From Cetorhinus maximus (lineage: Eukaryota), in NCBI RefSeq assembly GCF_964194155.1, contig NC_135900.1, forward strand, positions 20,336,001-20,400,000: a DNA stretch of 64,000 nt. The letters are read 5' to 3'. The notes under the pieces were generated by a model that was not told where the DNA came from, did no database searches, and worked only from the letters and a program-made list of their open reading frames with translations. The position numbers and the translations under genes are program-made. Positions 2,791-41,526 of this stretch are shown here, one piece after another; positions within the stretch are counted from its first letter, which is position 1; every line of letters starts with the position of its first letter.

Positions 2791-3126
<336 letters not shown>

Positions 3127-7724: not shown

Positions 7725-8090
<366 letters not shown>

Positions 8091-25548: not shown

Positions 25549-27840
25549 CAAAAACAAAAATAGCTGGGAAAACTCAGCAGATCTGACAGCATCTGTGGAG
25601 AGGAAGACAGAGCTAACATTTCAAGTCCGTATGACTCTTCATCAGAACCGAAGAGAAATAGAAATGAGGTGAAATATAAGCTGTTTAAGGGGGGTGGGAC
25701 AAGTGGAACTGGATAGAGGGCCAGTGATAGGTGGAGGCAAAGGAGAGATTGCCAAAGATGTCATAGACAAAAGGACAAAGGGGTGTTGACGGTGGTGATA
25801 TTAGCTAAAGGATGTGCTAATAGTGACATTATGGGTAGAAAGCAGGATGAGCAAGTGACAGATGGCCCTAGTGGGGGTGGGGTGGAGGAAAGGAATCGAA
25901 ATATGCTAAAAGGTGGAGATAAAACAATGAATGGAAATAAATTTTAAAATAACAATAGAAATAGGCGGGAAAAGAAAAATATATTTAAATATATATAAGT
26001 ATTAGAAAAAAGGGGATCGGAAAGGGGGTGGGGATGGAGGAGAGAGTTCATGATCTGAAGTTGTTGAACTCAATGTTAAGCCTGGAAGGCTGTAAAGTGC
26101 CTAATCGGAAGATAAGGTGCTGTTCCTGCAGTTTGCGTTGAGCTTCACTGGAACATTGCAGCAGGCCAAGGATGGACATGTGGGCATGAGAGCAGGGTGG
26201 TGTGTTGAAATGGCAAGCAACAGGGAGGTCTGGGTCATGCTTGCGGACAAATTGAAGGTGTTCCACAAAGTGGTCACCCAGTCTGCGTTTAGTCTCTCCA
26301 ATGTAGAGGAGACCGCATTGGGAGTAGTGAATGCAGTAGACTAAATTGAGGGAAGTGCTGCTTCACGTGAAAGGGGTGTTTGGGCCCTTGGACAGTGAGG
26401 AGGGAGGAAGTAAAGGGGCAGGTGTTGCACCTTCTGCAGTTACATAGGAAGGTGCCGTGGGAGGGGGTTGAGCTGTAGGGGGTGATGGAGGAGTGCACCA
26501 GGGTGTCCCAGAGGGAATGGTCCCTACGGAATGCCGACGGGGGGGGGAGGGGTGAAGGGAAGATGTTTTTGGCGGTGGCATCATGCTGAAGTTGGCGGAA
26601 ATGACGGAGGATGATCCTTTAAATGTGGAGGCTGATGGGGTGATAAGTGAGGACAAGGGGGACAAGGGGGTTCTGGGAGGGAGAGGAAGGTGTGAGGGCA
26701 GATGCGCGGGAGATGGTCCGGACATGGTTGAGGGCCCTGTCAACCACCGTGGGTGGAAAACCTCGGTTAAGGAAGAAGGAAGACATGTCAGAAGAACTGT
26801 TTTGGAAAGTGGCATCATTGGAACAGATGCGATGGAGGCGAAGGAACTGAGAGAATGAGTTGGAGTCCTTACAGGAAGCAGGGTGTGAGAAGCTGTAATC
26901 AAGGTAGCTGTGGGAGTTGGTGGGCTTGTAATGAATATTGATGGCCAGTCTATCACCAGAAATTGAGACAGAGAGGTCAAGGAAGGGGAGGGAAGTGTCA
27001 GTGATGGACCATGTGAAAATGATGGAGGGGAGGAAATTGGAAGGAAAATGAACAAATTTTTCCAGGTCCAGACGAGAGCATGAAGCGGCACCGAAGTAAT
27101 CATCGATGTACCAGAGAAAGAGTTGTGGGAGGGGGCTGGAGTAGGACTGGAACAAGGAATGTTCCACATACCCCATAAAAAGGCAGGTATAACTGGGGCC
27201 CATGCGGGTACCCATAGCCACACCTTTTATTTGGAGGAAGTGAAAGGAGTTTAAGGAGAAATTGTTCAGTGAGAGAACAAGTTCAGCCAGATGGAGGAGA
27301 GTGGTGGTGGATGGGCATTGTTCAGGCCTCTGTTCGAGGAAGAAGCGGAGAGCCCTCAGACCATCCCGGTGGGGGATGGAGGTGTAGAGGGATGGTCTGG
27401 ACGTCCACGGTGAAGAGGAGGCGGCTGGGGTCAGGGAACTGGAAATTGTTGATCGGAAGTAGGACGTCAGAGGAATTGTGGATGTAGGTGGCAAGAGACT
27501 GGACAAGGGGAAAGAGAATGGAGTGAAGATAGTAAGAAATGAGTTCCGTGGGGCAGGAACAGGCTGACAGGATCGGTCTGCCGGGGCAGTCCTGTTTGTG
27601 GTAATGGTAGTTGTAAAGAGACAAAATATTGGTCCAGAGTGAGTGTAAATGCCCGAATGATAATCATTAAACTATACAACCCATCGCATCCACCTTTCTT
27701 CGGTTCTGAAGAGTCATATTCGACTCAATAGGTTAACTCTGTTTCTCTCTCCACAGCTGCTGCCAGACCTGCTGAGTGTTTCCAGCACTTTTTGTATTTA
27801 TATCTGATTTCCAGCATCCGCAGTATTTTGCTTGCATTTT
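25549..27840 (-). mobile_element. Penelope-like retroelement (RT + GIY-YIG), 5'-truncated with an inverted terminal repeat; inactive
   Basis: RT motifs SLYTSIPH, KGVAMGTRMGPSY and YIDD (ORF 26619-27506, premature stop). GIY-YIG C-terminus RLGTLQPSRLNIEF. Terminal repeat at 25549-25650 and an inverted copy at about 27695-27840. Confidence 0.92.
25610..25650 (-). ncRNA. Minimal type I hammerhead ribozyme motif in the Penelope terminal repeat
   Basis: Reverse complement CGGTT-CTGATGA-A-GAGTC-ATACG-GACTT-GAAA-T-GTT-AGCTC. CUGAUGA and GAAA boxes intact, stem II present, stems I and III weakened. Confidence 0.65.
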
Positions 27841-28049: not shown

Positions 28050-28460
28050 TACTGGGTTAAGCGTCCTGACCGCAAGGGGAGGGGCACTTGCAGAAAGATG
28101 TATTTTTTTTTAAACCCACGGGGGCGCAGGCCAACAACTCTCTTTTTGCTCAAAGCGAAAGGGCGAGTCCAGCTCAGCGCTCTGCTTTGATCAAACGACG
28201 GCAGCGGTCTCCATGGAAACCGGGAGGCGGGGGCCCCCGCCCACCCGCTGGCGGTTGGTCACGGGAGCGGGAGGGGGAGTTTTTACCGCGCGCGGCGCCG
28301 ACCGTTCGGAATCTTGTGATGATTTGAACGGCCCCGTGGAACAGGCCAATGAGGAGTGGCAGAGCCGATGACGTACGAGCGTGTCTATAAAAGTCTTGCC
28401 CTGAAGTCTGGAGCCAACGGTGGTTGAGTGTCTCCTCGTTCCTTGTTTAAAAAGTGGCGC
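28050..28460 (+). promoter_or_regulatory. CpG-rich promoter of the novel small gene
   Basis: Densest CpG cluster in the window. RFX X-box GTCTCCATGGAAAC 28207-28220, GC boxes about 28222-28245, TTTGAA 28323-28328, CCAAT 28346-28350, CRE-like TGACGTAC 28369-28376, TATAAAAG 28386-28393, TTTAAA 28446-28451. Confidence 0.8.
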
Positions 28461-28481
28461 TCTCACATTGAGAGAAAAGAG
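28415..28481 (+). other. Probable non-coding exon 1 of the novel Spo12-motif gene (start approximate)
   Basis: Starts about 25-30 nt after the TATA box and ends at a strong donor GAG|GTGAGA. No ATG. When spliced to 31522 it puts an in-frame TGA (28469-28471) upstream of ATG 31530. Confidence 0.65.
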
Positions 28482-30984
28482 GTGAGATAGTTTGTGGGTT
28501 GTGTAAAGCTGTATATAATAATCAATTGTTATGACATGATATGAAATGATAATTTGTGGCGGTTCGTTGCCACCCGTAAGAATTTGTGAACTCGTGGTAA
28601 GGACCTATTCAAACGAAAATAGAATTTGATCTCCGAGTTTTGGTTTCAATTGTGACTTTTGTTTGTATGAGTTCTTGCTCCTGACAACAGGGTGATAGTC
28701 TTAAAATGAATGGAAAGGTTCCTTTGCCTCTATTCAAGCAGCATTAATGCAGAGAGTTTTTTTTTCACAGCCAGCCTAAAGTTAGCTTTCCCCTGATGCA
28801 GAGAAAAGTGACAATAGTGTGGTGGTTTAAGCGGGCCGGTTTCGTGTCTGTAACATTTGGGGTTTTGACTGAATCGCTTGTGCATTATTTCTGAGATGTG
28901 TGTCTAAAGCCATGGCTAATTTTTCCACCTAGCTGTCTCAGCCACTTTTTTTTTTTAATTTTCTTTGGTGATTTGTAAGGGGGTGGGGCTTGCCATTCTG
29001 CTTAAATCCTCCTTTTTATGATTTAACCCTTTTAAACCCTCATTCTAGTGAAGCTATGCTGTGACCTCCTTTTCTGTCCAGAAATGGATGCATTGTTCCT
29101 GACAGGCGTTTGACCCAGACAGTACAACTGGATGGAGCATCACATCTCTTGTATTTCATCCACTTGCAATAAATAAACATTCATCTGACCTTTTTTGTAT
29201 GTGGGTAGGGGTGAGGAGTCTTAAGTTAAAGACAAAACAAGAAGAACTATTTGTACAGTGGAATATGCTGTCAGTGATCGAAACAGATTGTTGGCATTAA
29301 AAAAAAATGTGATAGTTCAAATTCTTTCCTTTCGATCACCTGAGGAGTCACAGTGGATTAGGACTAGTTGTAAGGAAGATTAACACCAACATTAGTTGGA
29401 CGGAAGATTTTTTTCATTTGAAGTTTTAGTCAAAGGTTTTATTTTCCTTTAAATTTGACATTTGTCTCTTGCCACTGTTGTGCTATCATTTTTTACATTT
29501 TAGAGATGAGCAGTGATAATAGTCAGGAAGTGTTTTTTTTCTGGTCTTAGCATGAATGAATCAAGCATGCATCTTGTAATTTGTTTTTATAATCCCTTAC
29601 TTGATTTTTATTATCCTAAATCCAAAATTGGAATTATGCTATCTAATATCCTACCTGGCCCTCCCCTCAAGTTCAGGGTAGTTGACTTTTCCCCCCTCTG
29701 CTTGTTTCTTAGAATCAGCCTTAGCCCTCCTGTGTATCATGAAACTACAGCTAGATACAGTCTCACCAAAGCCAGATGCATATTTCACTCTCTTAAAAAC
29801 TCTAAATAGGCAGTTTTAGCCAACGAAGCATTCTGACCTCTTCCTCATCTGTTGCCTCAGGCAAATTGCAATATAAAATATAATCCACTTGTTCTTCTAC
29901 CTAGTATGATTTATGACATTTAACTTATTTATGCTAGATATGAGAAATGAAACTTTAAAATTGCCTAGATTTTAATTAAAACCTATTTTTGTGGAACACA
30001 TGGAAATTTTGTAAGGGACATATTCTGAATTTGGGAAACAGTATGCTAAATTACAACTTGACTATCTCAACTTGGATTTTTAAGAGCACTTTGCAATAAC
30101 TTTATCTAATATAGCTTTGAAAGGTACATACCTAAAGCAGCAGATGAGCTTACAGCTGGAGACTCTTTGCCTACACTGCTTGCAAAGAAGTACAGTTCAA
30201 AGATGTTGTTTTGGGAGTTAGAGGTAAATTAGGTTAAAAGCATTCAGTGGATCCTGAAAGGCTGTTGTCAGATGAGTCGAGCTTGAAGTTCCTCTGGTTT
30301 CAATCTATCGGTATTTGCTGAAGAGGGGGTTGGTTGCACTTTGGACCTTGTGTGCTTTACAGTTCTCCCTCCCCCACCAACTTCAACAGCCTGTCCTAGT
30401 TTTGACATGAAGGGTTTTACTTGCATGTTTAAGGTTCATCACCCTCGTGCTTGACTAGCCTATAATCCTGTTGAGTGATCTGTGATTGCTTCGACTATTG
30501 CATGCTCCGAAATCTTTAAAATGGTCACCTTTGACATGCACCACATCTAATCTAGGACGGTTGTGTATTTCTGGAATGTGTTAATTCCTTATTTTGTGAC
30601 CTAGTTAGATTCTTAAACTAAAGCTCTTGCAGTAACCAGTTAGCCTTGTAGCATTTGGTCTGATTGGAGTATAGATCAAGCAACCTAAAGGGCCAATAAT
30701 TCCGTTACGATCAAAATTTGAGTATTAAGACTGAAAAGAGCATTTAATTTGGGATGTGCCAAGCTTGACTTTTAAATCTAGAAATTTGTAATAGGACGAA
30801 CTGAAGGAGGTAAGGAGTTTCTCAGTATTGAGTCTTAAAATTTTGGTTGGTTGCTTGCTTCTCCATCTGAGCCATCTTAAACTAGAGGGTAAGACACTCA
30901 GATGAGTAGCTAAGTTACTGATGGTTACAAAACAACTTGATAGGTACAGTTTAAACAAATACATTTCCTTTTATGCAAACATAC

Positions 30985-31390
30985 ATACCAACATACAAAT
31001 TAGGATCTGGAGTAGGCCATTCAGTCCTTGAGCCTGCTCTGCCATTCAATAAGATCATGGCTGGTCTGATTTGTAACCTGAACCCCACATTCCTGCCTAC
31101 TCCAATAACCTTTCACTCCCTTGTTAATCAGTCTATTTAGCCCTGCCTTAAAAATATTCAAAGACTCTGCTAACCACCCTCAGAATTTCTCCTCATATGT
31201 CTTAAATGAGTGACCCCTTATTTTAAAACAGTGACCCCCACCCCCGATTCTCCCACAAGAGGAAACATCCTCTCCACGTCCGTCCTGTTGAGACTTTCGA
31301 TCTTAAAGGTTTCAATCAAGTTGCCTCTTACTCTTCTAAATTCCAGTGGATACAAGCCTAACCTATTCAACCTTTCCTCAGAAGACAGCC
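30985..31390 (-). mobile_element. CR1 3' end in intron 1 of the novel gene
   Basis: ORF 31218-31442 (EERLNRLGLYPLEFRRVRGNLIETFKI) and CR1 tail ggagtaggccattcag...ccattcaataagatcatggct. Confidence 0.85.
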
Positions 31391-31529
31391 TGCAATTTTT
31401 TACACCTTTTTTGACTATGGAATGTGGCATTGTAGCCTCCAATACTTGTTTTGTCTATGGATGCATACATTGAACAGTATCAGCCGTAACCTTTTTTCCT
31501 CTGCGTTCTTTTCTCTACCAGATTTTGAA

Positions 31530-31621
31530 ATGAACACAAGCAAAGCTTTGACTAAGCACAGTGACCCAAACCAACAGCCCCCAACTCCAAGTTTAACAAA
31601 GAGAAAACAGGCACAGGAGAA
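31530..31621 (+). CDS. Novel Spo12-motif protein, first coding exon (exon starts at 31522)
   Basis: Long polypyrimidine tract + CAG (31520-31521). gaaATGa start. Encodes MNTSKALTKHSDPNQQPPTPSLTKRKQAQE(K). Donor AA|GTAAGC, phase 2. Confidence 0.8.
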
Positions 31622-31697: not shown

Positions 31698-31781
31698 GAA
31701 ATTCTTCCGAAGTCCAACTGACAGCATGCTTTCTCCATGCTCTCAAAGGCTGATGAAACCAAAGCATGTGAACCATACAGA
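31698..31781 (+). CDS. Novel Spo12-motif protein, second coding exon (Spo12 signature)
   Basis: 76-nt intron with a perfect TACTAAC branch point (31673-31679) and tctttAG. 84-nt phase 2-2 exon encoding KFFRSPTDSMLSPCSQRLMKPKHVNHT(E). Donor GA|GTAAGT. Confidence 0.85.
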
Positions 31782-33148
31782 GTAAGTTCTTGCAATGTGT
31801 AATTTTAACATTAGATATTCTATGTAAATTACACAGGCTTAAATGGCACATTTTAAGTCTTCAATAACTAAATGGAAAAATGTGGCAACTGAACTTGGTA
31901 TCTGTAGTTATCAAGTAGTTGGGGTGGCTTTTTGAAGAATGGAATTCACTTTGCTTCTGCAATATAACTTATAGTCAAGAAAACAGCATACTGACTAATT
32001 ACATCATGTGATCATAATGGTGAGTTGATATTTGTGTACCATTAGATGTTTTTGAGTTATCAGTTACCTTGGAAATTAATTACAAGAACGTGCCAGCTTT
32101 TATAGATGAGCTGCAAGACTTTCCCAGATGTCTCTACTCTGGACCATTGTGGAATATAATGTTGGCCCCAAAGGTCACTGGGATGAAGCTGTTGCTGGTG
32201 ATCTCCCAAAGGCTTACTACTTTTGCTCCCTATGGAGTCAGGGGAATAGTTTTAGTACATTTCTTTAAACCGAAAAGGCTTAATGGATCCACTTGCTGCA
32301 CACTTCATTGGGTACTGATTCAGCATTATTTTCATTGTTAAATTTGTGTAATAGCGTCAGCTGAGATGGATCAGGCTTCAACTGATCTTGAGCCCAGCTT
32401 TTAAAGTGCACAATTCTGAAAACAATATAATCTTGGTTTTCTTAAATTTTGTGCTTCAGAAATTGATCTCTCAACTATTGCCTCTAGTTGAGGACTTCCT
32501 GCAAACTGAATAATTGAATTTCAAATGTAGCTAATTTCCCATGGGATCTTCTGCTAGCTTGAAGCCACTCCTGTGGTTTCCCTCATTAATGTTTCAATCT
32601 TCAGTTATCTGGCAGGAAAGAGCTGTTTAGAGATCAAAGTGGCATCAGCCAAACCACTTTTTTTTATTTTTGGTTCAAGTCTCAGTATAGACCAGCCATT
32701 CCAGTTACAGGCCTGGACAGTAGCCCTCTTGTGGTATTGCTAGGAGTTTAAAACTGGACACCAAAATGGGCCTGTTTTTCTTCCCCTTTATCATGGTGAT
32801 GAATGTTTTGAAGTTGATTATTTTCATAGATATACTTTAACATTGATTTGCCTTAACTTTTAGTTTGAACACGAATACTATTGAATTGGCTATTAAACAG
32901 CTATCTGAACCTGTAGAACAGTTGAAGTAGGAGGTATGCACTAGTTTTGCAATTATTATCTATGGGAATTTGACTAAACCACAGATGAGAGGTTGCTGTA
33001 TAGTGGTACACATTCTAATGTGCTGTCATAAGAATAACATCCCACATAATTGAATGATAGTAGGTAGACACTTAATGCTAATTAGAATATCAAAAGATTA
33101 CTTTTTACATAAATGTTGATAACACCTGTTGTTTAAATGTGTCCTCAG

Positions 33149-33260
33149 GCTTCAAAGCAACGAGATTACTACCCAAGTTCATGAATTCTCTTTTGGAGAT
33201 AAAGAGAATGATTTTACTAATCTGGAACAAAGACTTTCTTTTGGAAGAAGTACTAGTTAA
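33149..33260 (+). CDS. Novel Spo12-motif protein, terminal coding exon (KEN box)
   Basis: gtcctcAG acceptor. Phase-compatible open frame LQSNEITTQVHEFSFGDKENDFTNLEQRLSFGRSTS, stop TAA at 33258-33260. Confidence 0.7.
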
Positions 33261-33503: not shown

Positions 33504-33509
33504 AATAAA
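33504..33509 (+). terminator. Candidate poly(A) signal of the novel gene
   Basis: First AATAAA after the stop, about 245 nt downstream, in U-rich context and before repeats resume at about 33690. Confidence 0.55.
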
Positions 33510-33689
33510 AGAAGCTGTATCTAATATAATTATACCATCGAATGGTATGATCTTACACAGTGACAACAGCCTGAATCAAGTTATTCAGCTTGTGCATTGG
33601 CAATCAAACCTTCAGTATTGCAACACATTCAATTAGTATCAAAGCTTAGTTCTTCAGTAGTACTTGGAAACAAAATTTAAGCTTTCAAC

Positions 33690-41385: not shown

Positions 41386-41526
41386 ATGGCGGGTGCCGGC
41401 GCCGGGGGCGGTAAAACCTATTCGTTTAAAGTTGTCCTGCTGGGGGAAGGCTGTGTGGGAAAGACATCTCTGGTGCTGAGATACTGTGAGAACAAATTCA
41501 ACGATAAGCACATCACCACGCTCCAG
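41386..41526 (+). CDS. RAB21: Ras-related protein Rab-21, exon 1
   Basis: ataATGg start. MAGAGAGGGKTYSFKVVLLGEGCVGKTSLVLRYCENKFNDKHITTLQ (P-loop GEGCVGKT, diagnostic of Rab21). Donor CAG|GTTCGT. Confidence 0.97.

What the first reader, a model, noticed from the sequence alone, without database searches (positions are those of the whole stretch)
33149..33260. KEN box and cyclin-docking-like motif in the C-terminus of the novel protein
Seen in sequence: D-KEN-DFT-N (KEN at 33201-33209) fits the extended KENxxxN/D degron. The C-terminal QRLSFG resembles an RxL/RLxF cyclin-docking motif. The N-terminus has an extra TP site and a basic KRK patch (possible NLS). Established: KEN boxes are APC/C-Cdh1 degrons, and yeast Spo12 is a nuclear, Cdh1-degraded protein. 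Inference: these motifs independently point to a CDK-phosphorylated protein that is degraded in G1. Short linear motifs also arise by chance.
Basis: partly seen in the sequence, partly recalled or inferred. Interest (0 to 1): 0.7.

Follow-up and report, generated by a model that had tools for sequence, protein, structure and literature searches.

The report
Regulatory tail of shark Spo12-like protein
This stretch is the last coding exon of a small spliced shark-type gene related to the yeast cell-division regulator Spo12, and it carries two short motifs that likely act as a destruction tag and, less surely, as a handle for the mitotic kinase, but neither role is tested and the few relatives available cannot yet tell the motifs from chance.

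Summary
The motifs are there and in frame. 33149-33260 is the terminal coding exon of a four-exon, 95-residue Spo12-family gene (PF05032, 29.3 bits, cut-off 20.5) between TMEM19 and RAB21. Its splice joints appear in contigs of five studies and in two intronless retrocopies. KEN (33201-33209) has the favoured D before it but lacks the P at +3. It is kept in two other sharks, but 28 of 36 exon columns are invariant, so that says little; 0 of 37 non-shark homologues have a KEN after the core. QRLSF is not an RxL motif. It is LxF-type, the class through which yeast Spo12 docks mitotic cyclin; it resembles human cyclin B1 LxF binders but misses two features all five share. It also fits a PP1/Aurora site. 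The TP plus basic patch is the best-conserved extra feature (17 of 37). Best reading: a CDK1-switched PP2A-B55 inhibitor, as shown for fission yeast Spo12, whose tail likely sets its switch-on and removal. The scan found this gene twice before in other genomes; the tail motifs are the addition here, and they are untested.

The parts
28323..28391 (+). Core promoter candidates: TTTGAA (CHR-like, 28323), CCAAT (28346), TGACG (28369), TATAAA (28386)
   Evidence: Sequence; TTTGAA in 2.1% of shuffles of 28200-28400; element names recalled, function untested
28398..28481 (+). Exon 1, 5' untranslated
   Evidence: Matches the 5' part of retrocopy L003; contig of X1 joins this region to 31520; GT at 28482
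31522..31621 (+). Exon 2; ATG at 31530; residues 1-31
   Evidence: joint 31621/31698 GT..AG in 6 of 8 runs laid
31584..31607 (+). T19-P site and basic patch (KRK, residues 24-26)
   Evidence: TP followed by a dibasic patch precedes the core in 17 of 37 non-shark homologues
31698..31781 (+). Exon 3; Spo12 core with S36-P (31711-31716) and S43-P (31732-31737), seven residues apart
   Evidence: PF05032 E 7.7e-07, 29.3 bits over cut-off 20.5
33149..33260 (+). Coding part of exon 4, residues 59/60-95 and stop (the finding)
   Evidence: joint 31781/33149 GT..AG in 5 of 8 runs; retrocopies
33198..33209 (+). Candidate KEN box with D at -1 (D76, KEN 77-79)
   Evidence: kept in P0004 and P0005; consensus from PMC3690534
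33222..33242 (+). LxF-type motif L84-x-Q-R-L88-S-F90; also fits an RVxF-like/Aurora site at S89
   Evidence: invariant in three sharks; compared with PMC6620034 and PMC12356897
33261..33524 (+). Short 3' UTR ending after AATAAA (33504-33509); a longer form runs past 33700
   Evidence: Both retrocopies stop at about 33524 before an A-rich run; contigs of four runs continue past 33700

Best explanation
The stretch is the last coding exon of a spliced 95-residue Spo12-family gene, and its unstructured tail carries a KEN and an LxF-type motif that likely time the protein's activity: LxF would dock cyclin B-CDK1, and KEN would let APC/C-Cdh1 destroy the protein after mitosis. Shown: gene structure, frame, family, motifs, purifying selection on the gene. 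Inferred by homology with yeast Spo12: CDK1 phosphorylates S43 and S36 (equivalents of S54/S47 in fission yeast, S125/S118 in budding yeast), and the phosphorylated core binds and inhibits PP2A-B55, reinforcing the mitotic state (about 0.7). Inferred from motif shape only: KEN is a working Cdh1 degron (about 0.5); the LxF docks a mitotic cyclin (about 0.3). The confidence below is for the tail working as such a timing module through at least the KEN role.
For: Pfam Spo12 over cut-off; Atlas features 0.91, Spo12 clusters. Splicing in five studies and two retrocopies. Since the retrocopies arose, the parent took 5 synonymous and 3 amino-acid changes on 56 and 229 sites (binomial p 0.01) while the retrocopies took 2 and 10; its exon-4 protein changes all fall in residues 64-68, none in 69-95. 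KEN has D or N at -1 in 3 of 3 shark proteins, the favoured residues in a set of 46 validated KEN boxes (PMC3690534); the tail has pLDDT 45-56 and no secondary structure. The three-residue deletion in Chiloscyllium lies between the two motifs and spares both. Budding-yeast Spo12 needs an LxF C-terminal to its CDK sites for Clb2-Cdk1 phosphorylation (PMC6620034 section 11); 3 of 3 Eremothecium/Ashbya homologues show it 30 residues after the first SP, and 11 of 11 proteins of one unnamed group carry [KR]L[DN]F N-terminally (15 of 37 in all, 1.8 expected). The shark L-x-Q-R-L-x-F matches the cyclin B1 binder from DNAH7 at five positions. Fission yeast Spo12 binds Pab1/B55 in an S54-dependent way and acts genetically as a PP2A inhibitor (preprint 10.1101/2025.10.28.685054).
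Against: Motif conservation does not exceed background: 28 of 36 exon-4 columns are invariant; chance that three given columns are invariant 0.46, that the six motif columns are 0.19, that a run of nine occurs 0.61. KEN follows the core in 0 of 37 non-shark homologues and occurs anywhere in 1 (2.8 expected). No P at +3; no D box in the protein. Fission yeast Spo12 showed no major change in level through the cycle. The LxF meets only one of three flanking preferences of the yeast consensus (two required) and lies 45 residues from S43, outside the stated 20-40 optimum. All 5 human cyclin B1 LxF binders have a hydrophobic residue at P-3 and an acid just after F; the shark has E and none, and the WEE1 peptide with the same L-x-Q-K-L-x-F frame was not a significant cyclin B1 binder. 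0 of 7 mite-type homologues (P0008-11, 14, 15, 23) have [KR]LxF. No bony-vertebrate orthologue was retrieved, so the key conservation test is open.
Confidence: 0.45

Rival explanations
1. The gene is a real Spo12-type regulator, but the two tail motifs are passengers: chance matches in a K/E/N-rich disordered tail that look conserved only because shark proteins change slowly.
For: 81 of 95 positions are invariant across three sharks, so motif invariance is expected. KEN arises in 3.7% and [KR]LxF in 6.5% of shuffles, and many motif classes could have been tried. KEN absent after the core in 37 of 37 other homologues. Fewer than 15% of strict RxL matches bound a cyclin, and 3 of 6 further LxF peptides bound cyclin B1 (PMC12356897).
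Against: Indels and parent-lineage amino-acid changes in exon 4 avoid both motifs; D/N alternation at KEN -1 stays within the consensus; LxF recurs in the family far above composition (15 of 37 against 1.8, though in related clusters).
Confidence: 0.28
2. R-L-S-F is not a cyclin handle but an RVxF-like PP1 docking site, or an Aurora site at S89 that switches such docking off; PP1 would then remove the CDK phosphates and release PP2A-B55 at mitotic exit.
For: Residue 87 starts a match to [RK]x(0,1)[VIL]x[FW] and to [RK]x[ST]-hydrophobic (both patterns recalled). RV[S/T]F motifs bind PP1 and are blocked by Aurora B phosphorylation (PMC8786283). Basic residue after the motif and no acid suit PP1 better than cyclin B (recalled). 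The protein's family regulates phosphatases.
Against: L stands where the motif has V; the patterns are loose (15% and 49% of shuffles); no PP1 link is reported for Spo12 in the passages I read; the homologues' motifs have N or D, not S, at the x position.
Confidence: 0.17
3. The KEN makes the protein an APC/C binder that competes with substrates (pseudosubstrate) rather than a substrate.
For: Small disordered protein with a KEN near its C-terminus and few lysines next to it (sequence); KEN boxes serve this role in Mad3/BubR1 and Acm1 (PMC3690534).
Against: No D box (RxxL absent) and no ABBA-like match to the recalled pattern; known inhibitors use several motifs together; the conserved part of the protein is the Spo12 core, not the KEN.
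Confidence: 0.05

Closest known systems
Saccharomyces cerevisiae Spo12 (FEAR network; LxF docking to Clb2, PMC6620034)
   Same: Spo12 core with two SP sites seven residues apart; an LxF C-terminal to them; small and disordered; yeast protein listed among APC substrates low in G1.
   Different: Shark LxF is 45 residues from the second SP, outside the 20-40 optimum, and lacks P at -3 and N/E at -2. The three Eremothecium/Ashbya homologues retrieved have no KEN. The budding-yeast degron was not established from any paper I could read.
Schizosaccharomyces pombe Spo12 (Cdk1-activated PP2A-Pab1/B55 inhibitor, bioRxiv 10.1101/2025.10.28.685054)
   Same: Same core and site spacing (S47/S54 against S36/S43); similar small size class; predicted short helix after the second site (H44-50).
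   Different: Its level did not vary much through the cycle; the preprint's main text has no occurrence of KEN, vertebrate, metazoa or human. B55 binding is untested for the shark protein.
Human cyclin B1-binding LxF peptides (PKN2, DNAH7, CDC42EP1, DBF4; PMC12356897)
   Same: LxF with K/R at P-1, no basic residue at P-2, Q at P-2 as in PKN2 and DNAH7, L at P-4 as in DNAH7, S at P+1 as in CDC42EP1.
   Different: E at P-3 where all five binders are hydrophobic; no acid after F where all five have one.
KEN-box substrates of APC/C-Cdh1 (consensus of PMC3690534)
   Same: KEN with D/N at -1 in a predicted unstructured region.
   Different: No P at +3 or +2; no D box; degradation untested.
ENSA/ARPP19 and FAM122A (vertebrate PP2A-B55 inhibitors)
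   Same: Likely the same target enzyme and a similar active-site-blocking mode, by analogy in the preprint.
   Different: No sequence similarity to Spo12 according to the preprint; ENSA/ARPP19 are switched through Greatwall, Spo12 directly by Cdk1.

Membership tests
Spo12 family (PF05032) | Match over Pfam's gathering score | tested here: met
   29.3 bits against 20.5, E 7.7e-07, on exon 3 alone
Spo12 family (PF05032) | Two SP sites seven residues apart in the core | tested here: met
   S36-P, S43-P; spacing stated for both yeasts
Spo12 family (PF05032) | Small, disordered, short helix at the core | tested here: met
   Model of P0004 on a 5-row alignment: mean pLDDT 59.3, helix 44-50 only; shallow alignment, so low confidence is partly expected
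Spo12 family (PF05032) | Phospho-dependent binding and inhibition of PP2A-B55 | not testable with these tools
   No intact B55 sequence was in hand; needs a bench assay
KEN box degron | K-E-N core with D/N at -1 | tested here: met
   D, D, N in the three shark proteins; consensus
KEN box degron | P at +3 (consensus preference, not obligatory) | tested here: not met
   T in the window, S in P0005, E in P0004
KEN box degron | Conservation above the local background | tested here: inconclusive
   3 of 3 sharks, but p 0.46 given 28 of 36 invariant columns; 0 of 37 non-shark homologues after the core
KEN box degron | Cdh1-dependent ubiquitination lost on KEN mutation | not testable with these tools
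   Bench assay
RxL cyclin-docking motif | R or K two residues before the core leucine | tested here: not met
   Q at P-2; no [RK]xLx{0,1}[FL] match; definition from PMC12356897
Yeast-type LxF motif (Clb2) | Essential L and F | tested here: met
   L88, F90
Yeast-type LxF motif (Clb2) | Two of three of P-3, N/E-2, K/R-1 (the paper's search rule) | tested here: not met
   E, Q, R: one of three
Yeast-type LxF motif (Clb2) | 20-40 residues from the CDK site | tested here: not met
   45 from S43 and 52 from S36 in the window; 42 from S43 in P0004
Human cyclin B1 LxF-type motif | LxF with K/R at P-1 and a non-basic P-2 | tested here: met
   Q-R-L-S-F
Human cyclin B1 LxF-type motif | Hydrophobic P-3 and acid after F (5 of 5 binders) | tested here: not met
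   E at P-3, G-R-S-T-S after F; the mutational-scan tables were too large to read
PP1 RVxF motif | V (or I) after the basic residue | tested here: inconclusive
   L; fits only the looser recalled pattern, which 15% of shuffles also fit

The most novel reading that the evidence does not exclude
Cartilaginous fishes keep the whole yeast Spo12 circuit in one 95-residue protein: a cyclin B-specific LxF handle that brings CDK1 to two sites, a phospho-switched core that blocks PP2A-B55 without Greatwall, and a KEN box that lets APC/C-Cdh1 reset the loop in G1. It would be a third kind of vertebrate B55 inhibitor, beside ENSA/ARPP19 and FAM122A, with its own on and off switches.
Probability: 0.2. Interest if true: 0.75.

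Novelty: new member of a known kind. Interest (0 to 1): 0.45.

Why it matters
PP2A-B55 timing sets mitotic entry and exit. A preprint has just made Spo12 a direct CDK-to-B55 feedback in yeasts and could point to no sequence homologue in animals, proposing FAM122A as a functional stand-in. A spliced vertebrate Spo12 with candidate docking and destruction motifs can be tested at once in Xenopus extract with three point mutants. If the motifs work, vertebrates have a Greatwall-independent B55 brake with built-in timing. If not, the gene remains of interest but this particular finding is a pair of chance matches.

Tried and rejected
RxL label: rejected. Different terminal exon: rejected. Joined contigs coming from retrocopies rather than the gene: rejected, since they differ from the window at only 0-2 places per short exon and run past 33524 where both retrocopies stop. 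Retrocopies as conservation evidence: rejected, they evolve neutrally (10 amino-acid to 2 synonymous changes; L003 has a frameshift), and the N before KEN in L002 is its own mutation. Organisms A and B show no listed difference in 33149-33260 but are too close to inform. No listed holder is on record as RNA; the RNA label is the tool's guess. Runs X2 and X8 did not cover the exons. Three protein searches, one profile-free library scan with 30 residues and one metagenome scan gave no ray, chimaera or bony-vertebrate orthologue; the word filters are strict (2, 2 and 201 candidates) and one search covered only 117-2000 residues, so this is not absence. P0006 (repeat protein, no aligned stretch) was dropped before the census of 37. 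The Pfam search of the own genome missed even this gene. PDB sequences: no hit. Atlas search of the tail alone: best 0.78, under the bar. No complex was predicted: the genome search gave cyclin genes only in exon pieces and no whole cyclin B, Cdh1 or B55 sequence was in hand. Shah 2001, Tomson 2009 and Grether 1999 were not held. One search had the exon 3 end off by one; corrected.

Full report
The observation. The interval 33149-33260 is an exon: AG at 33147-33148, an open frame of 36 residues and TAA. With exons 31530-31621 and 31698-31781 it gives 288 bases, 95 residues and one stop. The protein holds no [RK]xL and no RxxL match, so the RxL label fails and there is no D box.

The gene is real and this exon is used. 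Of 8 runs laid (of 16 listed), 6 show the joint 31621/31698 and 5, from five studies, the joint 31781/33149, both GT..AG. The RNA label of these runs is the tool's guess, but the contigs differ from the window at only 0-2 places per short exon and run on past 33700. Two intronless copies elsewhere in the genome (L002, L003) have the same joints, L003 also the untranslated exon 28398-28481, and both stop near 33524 before an A-rich run, 15 bases after AATAAA. Using them as a reference, the parent gene has taken 5 synonymous and 3 amino-acid changes on 56 and 229 sites (p 0.01 against neutrality) plus one codon deletion, whereas the copies took 2 and 10 (Fisher p 0.06 between the two). Neighbours are TMEM19 (DUF92 exons at 2818-3081 and 7776-8000) and a Rab whose exons start near 41389 (the name RAB21 is from my recall of the sequence and from note e1-8585416).

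Family. Exon 3 matches Pfam Spo12 at 29.3 bits, cut-off 20.5; the Atlas gives Spo12 clusters at 0.91 and 0.90. The closest proteins are unnamed predictions from Chiloscyllium punctatum (P0004) and Scyliorhinus torazame (P0005), so the window is most likely from a shark. A model of P0004 is unstructured but for a helix at 44-50. A 2025 preprint (10.1101/2025.10.28.685054; abstract and sections 6, 8 part 1 and 10 read) shows that fission yeast Spo12 is phosphorylated by Cdk1 on S54, is found next to Pab1/B55 only when that site is intact, and behaves genetically as a PP2A inhibitor; S47/S54 and budding-yeast S118/S125 are seven residues apart like S36/S43 here. I came to this paper through two earlier notes of this scan on the same gene in other genomes. 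That the shark core inhibits B55 is inference.

The KEN box. For: D or N precedes KEN in 3 of 3 shark proteins, the favoured residues in a consensus built from 46 validated KEN boxes (PMC3690534, passages); the region is predicted unstructured; [DN]KEN appears in 0.36% of shuffles; a three-residue deletion in Chiloscyllium falls just after it and spares it; budding-yeast Spo12 is named among known APC substrates that are low in G1 (PMC3128521, one passage; Shah 2001 seen as a title only). So KEN is at best a lineage-specific addition. I put it at even odds.

The second motif. It is LxF-type. In budding yeast an LxF C-terminal to the CDK sites of Spo12 is required for its phosphorylation by Clb2-Cdk1 and for FEAR activation (PMC6620034, passages and section 11). 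I see that motif 30 residues after the first SP in 3 of 3 Eremothecium/Ashbya homologues, and [KR]L[DN]F near the N-terminus in 11 of 11 members of an unnamed group; 15 of 37 carry [KR]LxF against 1.8 expected, but these are a few related clusters, and 0 of 7 mite-type proteins have it (6 of the 7 have a P/S-L-D/N-L stretch instead). The shark motif meets one of three flanking preferences where the paper asked for two, and is 45 residues from S43 where 20-40 is called optimal. Human cyclin B1 binds LxF peptides lacking a basic P-2 (PMC12356897; passages, sections 12 and 15, supplement file 4). Of 7 LxF-type peptides listed, 5 bound cyclin B1. The shark sequence shares L-x-Q-R-L-x-F with the DNAH7 binder, and L at P-4 is reported to favour cyclin B over A. 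But all 5 binders have a hydrophobic P-3 and an acid after F, the shark has neither, and the WEE1 peptide with the same frame bound cyclin F, not significantly B1. One passage reports that Glu at P-3 raised B1 binding in a BRCA2 RxL peptide. The mutational-scan tables, which bear directly on this, were too large to read. The same four residues fit a loose PP1 RVxF pattern and an Aurora site (patterns recalled; RV[S/T]F regulation from PMC8786283, passage). Cyclin docking about 0.3, PP1/Aurora about 0.17.

The N-terminal features. TP followed by a dibasic patch just before the core is present in 17 of 37 non-shark homologues, including mites and a nematode. It is better conserved than either tail motif and is probably part of the working core in animals; an NLS role is untested.

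Independence. The CDK part rests firmly on homology, not on these motifs. The joint shuffle figure for [DN]KEN with [KR]LxF is 0.017%, but it is post hoc. A CHR-like TTTGAA, CCAAT and TATA box before exon 1 (2.1% of shuffles) would fit G2/M transcription (recalled), a weak extra hint.

Novelty. Family, motif classes and yeast mechanism are known. In search listings for Spo12 with vertebrate (30 of 62 listed), with homolog and metazoan (25 of 28), with PP2A, B55, inhibitor (10 of 10), with TMEM19/RAB21 (10 of 17, none holding Spo12) and with shark (0) I saw no title or abstract opening on a vertebrate Spo12; the library lacks most subscription journals. The gene carries the Pfam label in public databases and was noted twice before by this scan; a search of the notes for Spo12 with KEN box found none holding all words. 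Verdict: observation confirmed, interpretation partly supported, new member of a known kind, interest 0.45.

Noticed in passing
L002:1233-1798 (-), G000:C10; L003:1375-2019 (+), G000:C12: Two processed copies of the gene, 92% and 95% identical over exon 4. L002 keeps a full open frame but has 5 amino-acid and 0 synonymous changes of its own; L003 has a 2-base deletion. They imply germ-line expression of the short 3' UTR form.
   Followed up: yes
window 31520, run X4 and L002 5' flank: The loose 5' end of the X4 contig nearly matches the genomic flank of retrocopy L002, so that insertion is shared with organism B and may be transcribed, or the contig merges the two loci.
   Followed up: partly
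window 33504-33524 and beyond 33700: Two 3' ends: retrocopies stop after the AATAAA at 33504, while contigs of 1.5-2.5 kb run on; likely alternative polyadenylation.
   Followed up: partly
L001:939-1392: An unnamed Spo12-family gene appears to have a phase-2 intron five codons before the first SP and another phase-2 intron after the basic stretch, as in the shark gene; read by eye, not confirmed by transcripts.
   Followed up: partly
proteins P0036-P0042: Seven unnamed proteins fuse a Spo12 core to a Maf/HAM1-type domain (PF02545).
   Followed up: no
proteins P0016-P0022, P0024-P0027: A group of 11 unnamed proteins with the Spo12 core at the very C-terminus and a conserved [KR]L[DN]F 99-165 residues upstream.
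   Followed up: partly
protein P0007 (and P0012, P0013): Three tandem Spo12 cores in one 260-residue protein.
   Followed up: no
window 28280-28391: GC-rich promoter with E2F-like, CHR-like, CCAAT, CRE-like and TATA elements in a row (names recalled).
   Followed up: partly
window 31000-31400 and 26000-27700: High-copy repeat in intron 1 (hundreds of contigs pile up) and LINE-like stretches upstream; not examined.
   Followed up: no
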